Shown here: in pieces, positions 45,001 to 50,105 of the stretch
Layout: each line of letters begins with the position of its first letter
Numbering within the stretch: the first letter of the stretch is position 1
IMG/VR virus record: IMGVR_UViG_2630968414_000007
Length of the DNA: 50,105 nucleotides
Origin: a virus
Taxonomy: Duplodnaviria; Heunggongvirae; Uroviricota; Caudoviricetes
Direction: 5' to 3' (one strand)
Made by a program: the position numbers

Positions 45001-48000
45001 GTGCACCGAAGATATTGTCAACGATTTCGTCATCGAACTGCGAGGACTCATCTTCAGTTACAAGGTGACCACAATTTTTGCAGATGGCTCCCGCGAAACT
45101 GTCAGAGCCCTGCGGCTTAAAGGATGTGTCAAAGACTTCGCCACCACATTCTGGGCAAGAAAACTTGATTGTATTCATAACCAATTTCCTCTCGAGTAAC
45201 AGACCCCTCAGAGGATACCACCTCGCCTGACGTGGTTAAAAGCAGGCAACGCTAACCACAAGGAGCCGACATGCAGAAACGAGAACCCGTCATCATCGCG
45301 CCAGACTATACCGATGATGAACTTTATGAGTGGATGCACCAGAAAATTAATGCAGCGCAGGATCTGAAATGGGCCAATGAAGCCAGGGCTAAGCAGGCTG
45401 AAAATCTGTCCGCTCTGGAGCAGGATATCACCAATCTGGAAAAAGCAGCGGCATTAAGCATTGCCAGAATGATTACATACCCGCGTTAATAGCTAACCAA
45501 CGAAGCTAAGGTTGGTAATTAAGGAGTTCTCCACGGGTGAGGTGGAGTGCGTGCGCCGGACACGGGTGAGCATACGGCACTGACAGTTTACTGAAAGGAT
45601 ATTTCCCTGAAAAGTCAGACCATAACGCGAAAGCGCACGGCGAGGTAGCTGGTTCATAGATAGCCTGTCGTTAAATTTTCGTCGACCGTGCGCTTCCGGT
45701 TGTGGCAATCCGCGAAATGGCGCGGCGGTAAGTATGGAGGGGTTATTCCTTCCCCCGTTGAGGACACCGGGTTGTCAGGTTGACCATACGCTTAAGTGAC
45801 AACCCCGCTGCAACGCCCTCTGTTATCAATTTTCTGGTGACGTTTGGCGGTATCAGTTTTACTCCGTGACTGCTCTGCCGCCCTTTTTAAAGTGAATTTT
45901 GTGATGCGGTGAATGCGGCTGAGCGCACGCGGAACAGTTAAAACCAAAAACAGTGTTATGGGGGGATTCTCTGTATCCGGCGTTAATTGTTAACTGGTTA
46001 ACGTCACCTGGAGGCACCAGGCACCGCATCACAAAATTCATTGTTGAGGACGCGATAATGGAAACGTTATTACCAAACGTTAATACGTCTGAAGGTTGTT
46101 TTGAAATTGGTGTCACTATCAGTAACCCTGTATTTACTGAAGATGCCATTAACAAGAGAAAACACGAACGGGAGCTATTAAATAAAATATGCATTCTTTC
46201 AATGTTGGCCCGTTTACGTCCGATACAAAAAGGATGCTGGCAATGAATACAGCATTTGCACTTGTTCTGACAGTTTTTCTTGTTTCCGGAGAGCCAGTTG
46301 ATATTGCAGTCAGTGTTCACAGGACAATGCAGGAGTGTGTGACTGCAGCAACCGAACAGAAAATTCCCGGTAACTGTTACCCGGTCGATAAAGTTATTCA
46401 CCAGGATAATAACGAAATCCCGGCAGGTCTTTAAAACAGTTCCGTAATAAACATCCGATTTCATTCTTATATGCCAGCAATGGCAGGGATTTGTTCACCC
46501 TTAAATCTGTAATGAGGTAAAACAAAATGAGTAAAGTCTTTATTTGCGCCGCCATTCCGGACGAACAGGCAATAAAGGAAGAAGGTGCCGTCGCTGTAGC
46601 CACTGCCATTGAAGCCGGTGATGAACGTCGCGCCCGCGCAAAATTTCACTGGCAATTCCTGGAACATTATCCGGCTGCTCAGGACTGCGCTTATAAATTT
46701 CTTGTTTGCGAGGATAAACCCGGTATACCCCGCCCTGCCCTCGATTCCTGGGATGCTGAATATATGCAGGAAAACCGCTGGGATGAGGCGTCTGCTTCCT
46801 TTGTCCCGGTCGAGACTGAATCCGATCCGATGAACGTCACTTTTGACAACCTGGCCCCTGAAGTACAGAACGCTGTCATGGTTAAGTTCGACACATGTGA
46901 AAACATCACTGTTGATATGGTGATTAGCGCACAGGAATTGTTGCAGGAAGACATGGCAACATTCGACGGCCATATCGTTGAAGCGTTGATGAAAATGCCA
47001 GAAGTTAACGCTATGTATCCGGAGCTTAAGCTGCATGCCATCGGGTGGGTTAAGCATAAATGTAAGCCTGGTGCCAAATGGCCCGAAATTCAGGCAGAGA
47101 TGCGCATCTGGAAAAAACGTCGCGAAGGTGAACGCAAGGAAGCCGGAAAATACACGTCTGTTGTTGATCTCGCCCGCGCCAGAGCCAATCAACAGCACAC
47201 TGAAAATTCAACAGGAAAAATCAACCCGGTCATTGCTGCCATTCATCGCGAATACAAGCAGACATGGAAAACACTGGATGACGAACTGGCCTACGCTCTC
47301 TGGCCTGGTGATGTGGATGCCGGAAACATTGACGGCAGCATCCATCGCTGGGCAAAAAATGAAGTTATCGACAACGGCCGCGAAGACTGGAAGCGTATCT
47401 CGGCATCAATGCGCAAACAGCCTGATGCCCTTCGCTACGACCGCCAGACTATTTTTGGCCTTGTCCGTGAACGTCCGATCGACATTCACAAAGACCCTGT
47501 GGCACTGAACAAATACATTACTGAATACCTGACTACAAAGGGCGTGTTTGAAGATGAAGGAACAAATCAGAGCGCAACTGATACTCTCTCGTCGCCAGTA
47601 CCAGAAACTGATGCAGTGGAAACGGCAATTCCGGACAACGAAAAAACCGAATGCAAAGTGGAAGTCGAACCATCTGTAGAACGTGAGGGGCCGTTCTACT
47701 TCCTCTTCACCGACAAGGATGGCGAAAAATACGGTCGCGCAAACAAACTTTCTGGTCTGGATAAGGCGCTGGCTGCCGGGGCTACTGAAATCACAAAAGA
47801 AGAATATTTTGCCCGAAAAAATGGCACATACACAGGCTTACCGCAAAATGCAAATACCGCACAAAATTCTGAACAACCAGAACCGGTAAAAGTTACCGCT
47901 GACGAAGTAAAGAAAATTATGCAGGCAGCCAATATCAGCCAGCCTGACGCCGAGGAACTGCTTGCAGTATCACGTGGTGAATTTGTTGAAGGGATTAGCG

Positions 48001-50105
48001 ACCCGAATGATCCGAAATGGGTTAAGGGGATCCAGACCCGCGATTCTGTGAACCAGAACCAGCAAGAAACGGAACAGAACGACCAGAAAGCGGAACAAAA
48101 CAGCCCAAATACGCAACAAAACGAGCCAGAAACGAAACAACCTGAACCAGTAGTGCAACAGGAACCGGAAAAGATCTGCACCGCCTGCGGTCAGAGCGGT
48201 GGCGGCAACTGCCCTGATTGTGGTGCGGTGATGGGTGACGCAACATACCAGGAAATATTCGATGGAGAGAATCAGCCTGAAGTTCAGGAAAATGATCCGG
48301 AGGAAATGGAAGGTACTGCACATCAGCACAAGGAGAACACTGGCGGCAATCAGCATCATGCCAGCGATAGTGAAACTGGCGAGGCGTCAGATCCCTTAAT
48401 TAAGGCGAACGGTCATCATAATCTCACATCCACCAGCAGAGCGGGGATTCATCTGATGATCGATCTTGAAACCATGGGAAAAAATCCCGATGCCCCGATT
48501 ATCTCAATAGGTGCAATATTTTTCGATCCGCAAACCGGAGATATGGGACCGGAATTTAGTAAGACTATCGATCTGGATACTGCTGGCGGAGTCATTGATC
48601 GGGACACCATGAAATGGTGGCTTAAACAATCACGCGAAGCGCAATCTGCCATTATGACCGATGAAATCCCGTTAGATGATGCACTGTTACAATTGCGGGA
48701 ATTTATCGACGAAAACTCCGGTGAATTTTTTGTTCATGTCTGGGGAAATGGAGCCAACTTCGACAACACGATTTTGCGCCGTTCATACGAACGGCAGGGG
48801 AGCCCCTGCCCGTGGCGTTACTACAACGATCGCGATGTACGCACAATCGTTGAGCTGGGGAAAGCCATAGACTTCGATGCCAGAACGGCTATTCCATTCG
48901 AAGGTGAGCGCCATAATGCACTTGATGACGCCCGTTACCAGGCAAAATACGTTTCAGCTATCTGGCAAAAACTGATCCCGAGTCAGGCTGATTCTTAATG
49001 TTCAACTGTCGCCGGTTGTGACTGGTATTCTGCAACCGGCGCTCGTCTGATGTAAGAGATAAAGAAATCGATGAGCGAAGTAATCATGATTGTCTCTCCC
49101 GGCAAATGGGTATCCGAAGAGCAGTTAATTGCGCTGAAAGGAATAAAAAAAGGTACGTTAAAAAAGGCCCGGGAAAAATCGTTTATGGAAGGAAGGGAAT
49201 ATAAGCATGTCGCTCATGACGGTATGCCATGGGATAACAGTCCATGCTTTTACAACCTGGAAGAAATTGATCGCTGGATTGAGCGCCAGGCATCAGCAAG
49301 ACCAAGACGTCATCTTACTTGACTAAAAGCCACACTAACTAATGAGAGAAGTTGAAATGAAATATCCGACAGGCGTGGAAAACCATGGAGGGAAATTACG
49401 TATCTGGTTTGTTTATAAAGGCGTAAGAGTCAGGGAAAACCTGGGGTTCCTGACACAGCAAAAAACAGGCGCGTTGCAGGTGAGCTACGCGCCTCTGTTT
49501 GTTACGCAATAAAAACTGGTGTTTTCGACTATGCAAAACAGTTTCCCTCCTCACGCAATCTGGAAAAATTTGGTGAGGCCCGACAAGATTTAACCATAAA
49601 AGAACTGGCTGAAAAATTTCTGGCACTGAAAGAAACTGAAGTCGCAAAAACATCACTCAACACATACCGTGCCGTCATCAAAAATATCCTGAGCATAATC
49701 GGTGAAAAAAATCTTGCCTCATCGATTAATAAAGAAAAATTACTGGAGGTTCGTAAAGAGCTACTGACTGGATACCAGATCCCCAAAAGTAACTATATTG
49801 TTACACAACCAGGGAGATCGGCTGTAACTGTAAATAATTACATGACAAATCTTAACGCCGTGTTCCAGTTTGGTGTTGATAACGGTTACCTGGCAGATAA
49901 CCCGTTTAAGGGGATCTCGCCATTAAAGGAATCAAGAACCATTCCGGATCCTCTTTCGCGGGAGGAATTCATCCGTCTTATCGATGCGTGCAGAAATCAG
50001 CAAGCCAAAAATTTATGGTGTAATACCGTCCTCAGTGGTGATTTTTAATGTGACGAAATTACGCCCCGGACAGGTAACAAAAACTTCAGCCTTTACGATC
50101 TTCAT

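What the first reader, a model, noticed from the sequence alone, without database searches (positions are those of the whole stretch)
46527..48998. Stand-alone 823-aa early-operon protein with a DEDDh exonuclease domain and no recombinase partner
This occupies the slot where Rac carries recE/recT, but the C-terminal domain has DnaQ-like motifs (DxE, GxNxxFD, HxxxxD) rather than a RecE-type nuclease, and no RecT/Bet-like gene is adjacent. The long N-terminal region, central zinc ribbon and Gln/Glu-rich linker are unassigned. A large exonuclease expressed early could act in recombination, host takeover or anti-defence.
Basis: partly seen in the sequence, partly recalled or inferred. Interest (0 to 1): 0.6.

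Follow-up and report, generated by a model that had tools for sequence, protein, structure and literature searches.

The report
RecE-bodied prophage 3'-5' exonuclease (intact YdfE)
This is the intact form of the E. coli K-12 pseudogene ydfE: a common prophage early gene in which the non-catalytic body shared with the RecE recombination nuclease carries a T4 DexA-like 3'-5' exonuclease instead of RecE's own nuclease, with no annealing partner; its enzyme class is clear but its biological role is untested.

Summary
The 823-aa ORF at 46527-48998(+) is real. The window is an E. coli O157:H7 prophage at the ynfA (Qin/CP-933P) site. The gene is common: at least 80% of it is found in 3,534 of 5,426 complete E. 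coli genomes and in viable phages such as mEp460. Its folded modules are under purifying selection.

Residues 1-256 are K-12 YdfE (96% identity). Residues 262-625, including the Zn-ribbon, are homologous to RecE 278-591 and stop exactly at RecE's nuclease boundary. A natural chimera (P0128) joins a ~100% K-12 RecE body (residues 1-390) to this DEDDh domain.

The same body elsewhere carries RecE's PD-(D/E)XK nuclease followed by RecT, or a probable Rad52/Erf-like annealase.

The closest characterised relatives are T4 DexA and E. coli EcD (37% identity), both 3'-5' DNA exonucleases. EcD's specificity residues are not conserved here.

Verdict: a domain-swapped variant of known kinds, annotated but uncharacterised, and moderately interesting.

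The parts
46527..48998 (+). Whole gene: 823-aa exonuclease, the intact orthologue of K-12 pseudogene ydfE (PGAP product 'exonuclease', WP_000048458.1)
   Evidence: ORF. 100% identical in O157:H7 genomes. PHROG 2082 matched end to end. dN/dS 0.25-0.28.
46527..47294 (+). N-terminal module (aa 1-256), equivalent to K-12 YdfE. It comprises an alpha/beta unit (about 1-100) and a helical unit (about 105-206).
47310..48401 (+). Segment homologous to the non-catalytic part of Rac RecE (aa 262-625, matching RecE 278-591)
   Evidence: BLASTP E=2e-58. The homology stops where the RecE nuclease domain begins. The review PMC11611040 gives the nuclease as residues 564-866 and the N-terminal domain as function unknown.
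47682..47831 (+). Small conserved module (aa 386-435, GPFYFLFTDKDGEKYGRANKL...) flanked by variable linkers
   Evidence: dN/dS 0.03-0.04 while the flanking linkers are 0.4-0.6. Absent from K-12 RecE in the alignment.
47956..48400 (+). Stretch with DNA-level identity to Rac recE (76.6%). It is the crossover zone between RecE-type and YdfE-type genes.
   Evidence: blastn of ORF nt 1430-1874 against recE nt 1370-1772. The natural chimera P0128 switches from RecE-like to window-like inside this zone.
47973..48044 (+). Most conserved non-catalytic motif, RGEFVEGISDPNDPKWVKGIQTRD (aa 483-506)
   Evidence: R483, G484, G489-P493, D495, K497 and W498 are invariant in seven diverse DEDDh-type proteins. 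23/30 identical to RecE.
48177..48221 (+). Zinc ribbon, C551-x2-C554...C562-x2-C565, shared with RecE
   Evidence: 25/30 identical to RecE 513-542. dN/dS 0.09. The same motif ends a Dam-like methyltransferase next to an EcD-like gene.
48252..48446 (+). Acidic/His-rich linker (aa 576-640) that holds the junction between the RecE-homologous body and the nuclease
   Evidence: Homology to RecE ends at aa 625. dN/dS 0.8-0.9.
48450..48965 (+). DEDDh 3'-5' exonuclease domain (aa 642-813) with catalytic residues D646, E648, D746, H796 and D801
   Evidence: Pfam PF16473, E=3.6e-66. PDB sequence hit only to 8kel/8ken, the T4 DexA exodeoxyribonuclease. Catalytic residues conserved in 47-48 of 48 homologues. 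37% identity to an EcD-like protein.
45271..46434 (+). Upstream genes of the same early-left operon: ydfC (45271-45489), DicF sRNA (45832-45883), dicB (46058-46246), ydfD (46243-46434)
   Evidence: PGAP annotation of the identical locus. Rfam DicF at 76.7 bits. Same gene order as K-12 Qin.
49071..50039 (+). Downstream excisionase (49071-49322) and frameshifted integrase (49357-50039); no annealase lies in between
   Evidence: DUF1233 excisionase, E=1.6e-31; integrase match split at about 49443.

Best explanation
The gene encodes a Mg2+-dependent 3'-5' DNA exonuclease of the DexA/Rv2179c-like DEDDh class. This nuclease is attached to the same non-catalytic platform that carries the 5'-3' nuclease in RecE.

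It arose by module exchange. Recombination within the conserved RGEFV...Zn-ribbon region replaced the PD-(D/E)XK nuclease, and with it the downstream recT, by a DEDDh domain. That domain otherwise circulates as a stand-alone gene of about 189 aa just upstream of xis/int in enterobacterial prophages.

The gene is transcribed with ydfC-DicF-dicB-ydfD from the early-left promoter, so the protein should be made on induction rather than in the repressed lysogen.

The nuclease removes nucleotides from DNA 3' ends. The platform most likely delivers it to the same place or partner to which it delivers RecE, presumably DNA ends or recombination/replication intermediates. There it would work as an annealase-independent end-processing enzyme and not as half of an exonuclease-annealase pair.

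Shown here: the ORF, the domain identities, the conserved catalytic residues, the exact swap boundary, the natural chimera, the absence of an annealase, and purifying selection.
Inferred: DNA rather than RNA as substrate (from DexA and EcD), expression timing (from Qin synteny), and the targeting role of the platform.
For: - DEDDh domain: Pfam E=3.6e-66. D646, E648, D746 and D801 are conserved in 48/48 homologues from about 45 species, and H796 in 47/48.
- The only solved relative by sequence is T4 DexA, a biochemically shown 3'-5' DNA exonuclease. An E. coli homologue, EcD, is likewise a DNA exonuclease (PMC12153337). An EcD-like protein is 37% identical to the window domain.
- Body homology to RecE 278-591 ends at the nuclease boundary.
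- P0128 is about 100% K-12 RecE over residues 1-390 and then about 97% window-type through to the C-terminus.
- All four combinations of N-terminal module and nuclease type exist.
- PD-(D/E)XK versions are followed by RecT or a 271-aa gene. DEDDh versions are followed directly by xis/int. No RecT, Bet, lambda Exo or Gam was found within 6 kb in 55 loci.
- Another C-terminal partner of the same body is probably a Rad52/Erf-type annealase, so the other assigned catalytic partners of this body (RecE nuclease, probable annealase) are recombination enzymes.
- Folded modules have dN/dS 0.03-0.3 and linkers 0.5-0.9.
- The operon context is identical to Qin ydfC-dicF-dicB-ydfD-ydfE.
Against: - No biochemical or genetic data exist for this protein or for any fused form. 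None was found in the searchable literature.
- A 3'-5' exonuclease produces 5' overhangs, which are not the classical substrate for single-strand annealing, so a recombination role is not mechanistically obvious.
- The function of the RecE N-terminal region is itself unknown (PMC11611040). The confidently modelled N-terminal 345 aa have no informative structural relative, so 'targeting platform' is inference only.
- Pfam and NCBI name the domain an exoribonuclease, and RNA substrates are not excluded.
- The one cellular phenotype known for a close relative (EcD) is anti-phage, not recombination.
Confidence: 0.55

Rival explanations
1. Inter-phage weapon or defence nuclease of the EcD/'HREX' type. 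The prophage makes a DexA-like exonuclease that spares unmodified host and prophage DNA and digests the modified DNA of superinfecting or co-infecting phages such as T-even phages.
For: - EcD, an E. coli DexA homologue, digests 5hmC T4 DNA but not unmodified dsDNA, and protects cells from T4 (PMC12153337).
- The window domain is 37% identical to an EcD-like protein recovered with the published primer.
- Stand-alone homologues are widespread in prophages.
- There is a weak PADLOC hit to a Cas-associated DEDDh model, E=3.4e-5.
Against: - The three positions the paper ties to EcD's behaviour differ here. The tetramer residue D90 (Ala78 in EcD) is retained as D718. W152 aligns to Y766. The acidic 5hmC-contact residue aligns to K779/A780.
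- The gene lies in the dicB early operon, which by synteny with Qin should be repressed in lysogens. No promoter signal above chance lies upstream.
- A 640-aa RecE-type body is unexplained by this model.
Confidence: 0.2
2. Exoribonuclease, as the Pfam and NCBI names say. On this reading it trims RNA 3' ends during the early lytic programme, for example in host or phage transcript turnover or in processing of the co-transcribed DicF precursor.
For: - The Pfam family is named after the M. tuberculosis 3'-5' exoribonuclease Rv2179c.
- NCBI calls many members '3'-5' exoribonuclease'.
- DicF sRNA is encoded about 650 bp upstream in the same operon.
Against: - A sequence search of the PDB finds only T4 DexA, a DNA exonuclease, and no RNase.
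- The two characterised closer relatives, DexA and EcD, act on DNA.
- The body is shared with DNA enzymes, namely the RecE nuclease and a probable annealase.
Confidence: 0.1
3. Nucleotide scavenging or anti-defence by destroying small DNA molecules, such as oligonucleotides from DNA breakdown (as for DexA) or retron msDNA (as RecE does).
For: - DexA has a documented host-DNA scavenging role.
- RecE degrades msDNA and triggers retron-Sen2 (bioRxiv 10.1101/2020.06.22.160242).
- Stand-alone homologues sit near a weakly YfbR-like HD gene (below the Pfam cutoff) and a DUF2303 gene in 8-13 of 31 loci.
Against: - Lambdoid phages are not known to degrade host DNA (background knowledge).
- No data link a DEDDh enzyme to msDNA.
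- The HD-like neighbour match is below the Pfam cutoff (16.8 vs 25.9 bits), and that gene is absent from this window.
Confidence: 0.1
4. Decaying relic of a defective prophage with no current function.
For: The prophage in the window is defective, with a frameshifted integrase. The K-12 and Shigella copies are pseudogenes.
Against: - The ORF is intact in thousands of genomes and in plaque-forming phages.
- dN/dS is 0.03-0.3 in the folded modules.
- The catalytic residues are invariant.
Confidence: 0.03

Closest known systems
RecE (exonuclease VIII) of the Rac prophage, E. coli K-12
   Same: - Same operon slot, between the kil/dicB-type genes and xis/int.
- Homologous non-catalytic region (window 262-625 matches RecE 278-591), including the RGEFV..DPNDPKW motif and the Zn-ribbon.
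- Natural chimeras join the two gene types.
   Different: - The catalytic domain is DEDDh (3'-5') instead of PD-(D/E)XK/DUF3799 (5'-3').
- The first ~260 aa are a different module: YdfE_N rather than Pfam Exonuc_VIII.
- There is no RecT next door.
- It scores 273.8 bits against the RecE equivalog cutoff of 1269.
T4 DexA (exonuclease A; PDB 8KEL/8KEN)
   Same: Same DEDDh family. All five catalytic residues align (D7/E9/D119/H186/D191 to D646/E648/D746/H796/D801), as does the conserved WW motif.
   Different: - Only about 26-28% identical.
- DexA is a stand-alone 227-aa protein of a virulent phage, with extra loops.
- Of DexA's 5hmC-contact residues W152 and D169, the first is Tyr here and the second is not acidic.
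EcD / 'HREX' exonuclease of E. coli (HAK9828821.1; Kang et al., NAR 2025, PMC12153337)
   Same: DexA-like DEDDh exonuclease encoded in E. coli. An EcD-like 189-aa protein is 37% identical to the window domain over 183 aa, E=8e-38.
   Different: - EcD is stand-alone.
- EcD has Ala78 where the window has D718.
- EcD keeps the Trp and the acidic residue that are Y766 and K779 here.
- EcD's anti-T4 phenotype has not been tested for the fused form.
Stand-alone prophage DEDDh proteins of Enterobacterales (about 189 aa, Pfam Rv2179c-like)
   Same: 45-59% identical to the window domain. Same position, immediately upstream of xis/int, in many species. No annealase nearby.
   Different: They lack the 640-aa body. 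At the DexA-W152 position they mostly have Trp, and at the D90 position they are variable.
YdfE of the K-12 Qin prophage (pseudogene b1577)
   Same: 96% identical over residues 1-256, with the same neighbours ydfC, dicF, dicB and ydfD.
   Different: The K-12 copy is truncated by IS2E and has lost everything from residue ~257 on, including the nuclease.

Membership tests
DEDDh (DnaQ-like) exonucleases / Pfam PF16473 Rv2179c-like | Match to the family HMM above the gathering score | tested here: met
   222.7 bits against a cutoff of 27, E=3.6e-66, profile positions 2-177 of 177.
DEDDh (DnaQ-like) exonucleases / Pfam PF16473 Rv2179c-like | Exo I (D-x-E), Exo II (D) and Exo III (H-x4-D) catalytic residues | tested here: met
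   D646, E648, D746, H796 and D801. Conserved in 47-48 of 48 homologues.
DEDDh (DnaQ-like) exonucleases / Pfam PF16473 Rv2179c-like | Metal-dependent 3'-5' exonuclease activity | not testable with these tools
   Needs a nuclease assay with wild type and D646A/E648A.
RecE / exodeoxyribonuclease VIII (NCBIfam NF007259 equivalog) | Full-length match above the equivalog cutoff | tested here: not met
   273.8 bits against a cutoff of 1269. Only positions 445-603 of 877 are matched.
RecE / exodeoxyribonuclease VIII (NCBIfam NF007259 equivalog) | C-terminal PD-(D/E)XK nuclease domain (Pfam DUF3799) | tested here: not met
   No DUF3799 hit, whereas RecE, P0132, P0250 and P0202 all hit it. The alignment with RecE ends at RecE residue 591.
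RecE / exodeoxyribonuclease VIII (NCBIfam NF007259 equivalog) | Homologous central region with the Zn-ribbon | tested here: met
   Window 262-625 matches RecE 278-591, E=2e-58; 76.6% DNA identity over 445 nt.
Two-component phage recombinase (5'-3' exonuclease plus single-strand annealing protein, e.g. RecET, lambda Red) | Adjacent annealase gene | tested here: not met
   No RecT, Bet, L007 271-aa protein or Rad52-like tail anywhere in the window or within 6 kb in 55 related loci. The Sak4 and Gp2.5 families were not tested.
Two-component phage recombinase (5'-3' exonuclease plus single-strand annealing protein, e.g. RecET, lambda Red) | 5'-3' polarity nuclease of the PD-(D/E)XK class | tested here: not met
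   The nuclease domain is DEDDh, a class whose characterised members are 3'-5'.
EcD-type 'HREX' exonuclease (PMC12153337) | Homology to DexA with intact catalytic residues | tested here: met
   PDB 8kel at E=1e-6 for the domain. 37% identity to an EcD-like protein.
EcD-type 'HREX' exonuclease (PMC12153337) | Loss of the DexA D90 tetramer residue (Ala78 in EcD) | tested here: not met
   The window has D718 at this position, in alignments with both DexA and the EcD-like protein. It is invariant in all fused forms.
EcD-type 'HREX' exonuclease (PMC12153337) | Trp (DexA W152) and acidic residue (DexA D169) proposed to read 5hmC | tested here: not met
   These positions are Y766 and K779/A780. The stretch aligns to the EcD-like protein without gaps. 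The alignment to DexA has a 4-residue gap, so the D169 equivalent is less certain there.
EcD-type 'HREX' exonuclease (PMC12153337) | Selective digestion of modified phage DNA and protection from T4 | not testable with these tools
   Needs biochemical and plaque assays.
YdfE family (Pfam PF27430 YdfE_N, PF27432 YdfE_C) | N-terminal modules matching YdfE | tested here: met
   96% identity to K-12 YdfE over 256 aa. Precomputed Pfam PF27430 and PF27432 are recorded on close homologues at 89-94% identity, with the names given. These models are absent from the local Pfam copy.

The most novel reading that the evidence does not exclude
The RecE/YdfE non-catalytic body is a general delivery platform of lambdoid and Rac-type phages. 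It can carry interchangeable DNA-end enzymes: a 5'-3' nuclease, a 3'-5' nuclease, or a Rad52/Erf-like annealase. The crossovers occur in the conserved RGEFV..Zn-ribbon joint. The DEDDh version would then define an annealase-independent activity that has not been described, either a distinct way of processing DNA ends for phage recombination or replication, or a targeted weapon against competing phage DNA. This reading would also finally give a handle on what the long-unexplained N-terminal two-thirds of RecE does.
Probability: 0.3. Interest if true: 0.65.

Novelty: new variant of a known kind. Interest (0 to 1): 0.45.

Why it matters
RecE is a workhorse of recombineering, yet its N-terminal ~590 residues are still described as 'function unknown', even though they boost linear-linear recombination (PMC11611040).

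Nature re-uses that same body with a nuclease of the opposite polarity and with a probable annealase. Nearly isogenic natural chimeras exist (P0128 versus K-12 RecE). Together these give a ready-made comparative system for asking what the body does.

The gene is also one of the most common prophage genes in E. coli: at least 80% of it is present in about 65% of complete genomes, often in several copies, and in O157:H7 prophages. A homologue of its nuclease domain was recently shown to destroy modified T4 DNA. Its activity could therefore bear on prophage-phage competition and on prophage recombination in pathogenic E. coli.

If it is only an accessory end-trimming enzyme, the result is ordinary phage mosaicism.

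Tried and rejected
- Sequence-profile tests of that tail were negative: against the PDB, Pfam, and RecT/Bet by hhalign. The annealase assignment therefore rests on a pLDDT-72 model and TM-scores of 0.3-0.5.
- The promoter/terminator scan around the gene is at chance level. It gives no evidence for or against an independent promoter.
- Several literature searches found nothing on this protein: Rv2179c with prophage, ydfE with Qin, YdfE alone, DEDDh with anti-defence, and HREX follow-ups. One search was wasted because 'RecE' matched 'receptor'.
- The exact EcD sequence (HAK9828821.1) could not be fetched. I used a 189-aa protein that matches the published forward primer exactly, has Ala78, and matches the reverse primer with one indel. 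It is EcD-like, not proven to be EcD.
- I considered and rejected a fusion artefact or pseudogene and membership in the RecE equivalog.

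
Full report
**Observation**

The window is E. coli O157:H7 prophage DNA. The gene is 100% identical in many O157:H7 chromosomes, where PGAP calls it 'exonuclease' (WP_000048458.1). The prophage lies next to ynfA, the site occupied by Qin in K-12.

The local gene order is relB-relE, a small Zn-binding gene on the other strand, ydfC, DicF sRNA (Rfam 76.7 bits, 45832-45883), dicB, ydfD, this gene, an excisionase, and a frameshifted integrase.

The gene is very common.
- 3,534 of 5,426 complete E. coli genomes hold a place covering at least 80% of it, with a median of 2 and up to 10 places per genome.
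- It is also present in sequenced phages such as mEp460 (98% identity), Tritos and HannyBb.
- PHROG 2082 matches it from end to end.

**The C-terminal domain**

Residues 642-813 match Pfam PF16473 (Rv2179c-like DEDD exonuclease) at E=3.6e-66. The catalytic residues are D646 and E648 (LMIDLETMG), D746 (GNGANFD), and H796 and D801 (HNALDDA). In 48 homologues collected from about 45 species, the four acidic residues are invariant and the histidine is present in 47.

The only solved structure found by sequence is 8KEL/8KEN. Its aligned residues 4-162 are identical to the T4 dexA product translated from the T4 genome record. By tblastn the domain occurs in 1,743 phage records, including T4-type dexA at about 26% identity.

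**The rest of the protein is not unassigned**

BLASTP against K-12 RecE aligns window residues 262-625 with RecE 278-591 (E=2e-58). Identity is very high from about residue 470 onwards: 23/30 in the RGEFVEGISDPNDPKW motif and 25/30 across the Zn-ribbon. At the DNA level it is 76.6% over 445 nt.

The homology stops at RecE residue 591, which is where RecE's catalytic domain begins. [quoted passage not shown]

Residues 1-256 are 96% identical to the product of the K-12 pseudogene ydfE. That gene is cut by IS2E and sits in the same ydfC-dicF-dicB-ydfD context. Precomputed annotations from a newer Pfam release name these parts YdfE_N and YdfE_C.

**Modularity**

An exhaustive search of 1.84 billion representative proteins with residues 1-640 gave 245 relatives. 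I mapped modules on those longer than 450 aa. Two alternative N-terminal modules occur (YdfE-type and RecE/Exonuc_VIII-type). They are followed by shared central modules and then by alternative C-termini: DEDDh, the RecE-type PD-(D/E)XK nuclease (Pfam DUF3799), or neither. All four combinations of N-terminus and nuclease exist.

P0128 is the clearest case. It is about 100% identical to K-12 RecE over residues 1-390 and about 97% identical to the window protein from window residue ~497 to the end. The switch lies inside the shared RGEFV..Zn-ribbon zone. Its locus is a Rac-like prophage with KilR, YdaE and SieB, in which the exonuclease is followed directly by xis/int.

**Partner genes**

PD-(D/E)XK versions are followed by an overlapping or adjacent gene of about 270 aa.
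- RecT in Rac.
- RecT after P0132, which has the same YdfE-type body as the window protein (Pfam RecT E=2e-36).
- A 271-aa protein of unknown family after P0250.

DEDDh versions are followed directly by xis/int in the window and in three diverse loci.

In 55 loci from one genome per species, tblastn found no RecT, Red-beta, lambda Exo, Gam, RecE nuclease or the 271-aa protein within 6 kb. None is present anywhere in the 50-kb window either.

In most Enterobacterales the DEDDh domain is a stand-alone protein of about 189 aa (45-59% identity), often directly upstream of the integrase. Long fused forms were seen only in Escherichia/Shigella, Kluyvera and one unnamed enterobacterial genome.

**A third partner of the body**

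Fourteen relatives end in a ~265-aa domain with the motif KKSLTDAxKKALSxLGF. It has no Pfam, PDB-sequence, RecT or Bet signal.

- Foldseek against viral models gave 15 hits at E<=1e-3. The named ones are 'DNA repair protein Rad52/59/22' (2.6e-6), 'RAD52-like DNA recombinase' (1.4e-4) and several Erf proteins.

I regard a Rad52/Erf-type annealase as probable but not proven. One such gene is followed by a Mu Gam-like gene. The catalytic partners assigned so far, the RecE nuclease and this probable annealase, are recombination enzymes; some relatives end in only a short tail with no catalytic domain.

**Structure of the body**

**Selection**

Against the E. ruysiae and E. albertii orthologues, dN/dS is:

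| Module | dN/dS |
|---|---|
| N-terminal module | 0.06-0.07 |
| Mini-domain 386-435 | 0.03-0.04 |
| Zn-ribbon | 0.09 |
| DEDDh domain (few changes) | about 0.3 |
| Linkers | 0.5-0.9 |
| Whole gene | 0.25-0.28 |

This is a maintained multi-domain gene, not a decaying fusion.

**Comparison with characterised relatives**

Kang et al. [quoted passage not shown] They also show that an E. coli homologue, EcD, digests 5hmC-containing T4 DNA but not unmodified dsDNA, and protects cells from T4. They tie this behaviour to loss of the tetramer residue D90 (Ala78 in EcD) and to W152 and D169, which contact 5hmC.

Using the gene-specific part of their forward primer I recovered a 189-aa protein from seven viral contigs. 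It has Ala78 and matches the reverse primer with one indel. It is 37% identical to the window domain (E=8e-38) and 28% identical to DexA.

In ungapped alignment with it, the window has D718 (not Ala), Y766 (not Trp) and K779 (not Glu). The MAFFT alignment with DexA gives D718, Y766 and A780. The window protein is therefore a homologue of EcD but does not share its proposed specificity determinants.

**Interpretation**

What is shown:
- an intact, conserved, selected gene;
- a DEDDh domain with a complete active site whose nearest characterised relatives are 3'-5' DNA exonucleases;
- a body shared with RecE up to the exact nuclease boundary;
- natural chimeras;
- consistent absence of an annealase.

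What is inferred:
- the substrate is DNA;
- the gene is expressed with the dicB operon on induction;
- the body targets the nuclease to the same place as it targets RecE.

I commit to an annealase-independent 3'-5' DNA end-processing enzyme on a RecE-type platform (confidence 0.55 overall; the enzymatic class alone about 0.85).

The main rival is an EcD-like weapon against modified phage DNA (0.2). Its weak points are the different specificity residues, the early-operon location, and the unexplained body. RNase, scavenging/anti-defence and relic readings are less likely.

**Novelty**

The gene is annotated in every database, and each of its domains has a family model, so its existence is not new. 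I found no paper on the fused protein or on YdfE function. I also found none describing the RecE body as an exchangeable platform; the 2023 review only notes length heterogeneity among RecE hits. I rate it a new variant of known kinds, with moderate interest.

Noticed in passing
Proteins P0130, P0134, P0138, P0154, P0166, P0182, P0188, P0189, P0217, P0235, P0260, P0261, P0268; e.g. L012:4001-6370: The same YdfE/RecE-type body is fused to a ~265-aa C-terminal domain that no Pfam model covers and that PHROG labels 'exonuclease'. Its AF2 model matches viral Rad52/Erf-type annealases by Foldseek (E down to 2.6e-6 for named hits; TM 0.3-0.5). In L012 it is followed by a Mu Gam-like gene.
   Followed up: partly
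window 45832-45883 (+): DicF sRNA (Rfam RF00039, 76.7 bits) lies between ydfC and dicB, as in K-12 Qin, in the same operon as the exonuclease.
   Followed up: yes
window 49357-50039 (+): The integrase is frameshifted near 49443-49446 and truncated (PGAP marks it as a pseudogene), so this prophage copy is probably excision-defective although the exonuclease is intact.
   Followed up: partly
L089:4976-5956 (+), also L090, L092, L095: A Dam-like DNA methyltransferase about 250 bp downstream of the EcD-like exonuclease gene ends with the same Zn-ribbon motif as RecE and this protein (CDACGRHGGGYCPDYGPVTGDATY; 33-39% identity to window residues 501-578). The ribbon may be a mobile targeting tag shared by early-operon DNA enzymes.
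   Followed up: no
L019:2882-3709 and L019:3813-4379; 8 and 13 of 31 stand-alone loci: Stand-alone DEDDh genes are often preceded by a DUF2303 protein (Pfam E=2.4e-64) and by a 188-aa protein with a sub-threshold match to YfbR-like 5'-deoxynucleotidases (16.8 vs 25.9 bits).
   Followed up: partly
L016 (JAGZPX010000007.1): A contig binned as a Veillonella parvula MAG carries an E. coli-type prophage segment (dicB, ydfD, an 812-aa RecE_N+DEDDh exonuclease, and xis and int 100% identical to the window and mEp460). This is almost certainly mis-binning or contamination.
   Followed up: no
P0125 (L009:4001-6109), P0133: Some relatives have the body but no catalytic domain. They end in a short conserved tail (...LTIAAxxGLCANP...) and are followed directly by xis/int.
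   Followed up: no
window 44076-44547 (+): A relB/relE-type toxin-antitoxin pair sits in the early-left region just downstream of the repressor-like gene, as in Qin.
   Followed up: no
window 1-6000: G+C drops to 31-48% at the left end of the window, against 52-63% in the adjacent late/tail region. This suggests foreign cargo genes beyond the tail fibre genes.
   Followed up: no
L044 (Shigella flexneri CP182557.1) 6001-8441: The Shigella copy of the gene is broken by frameshifts or stops in several modules, and its integrase is fragmented too. It is a decaying copy, in contrast to the intact E. coli, E. albertii and E. ruysiae genes.
   Followed up: no
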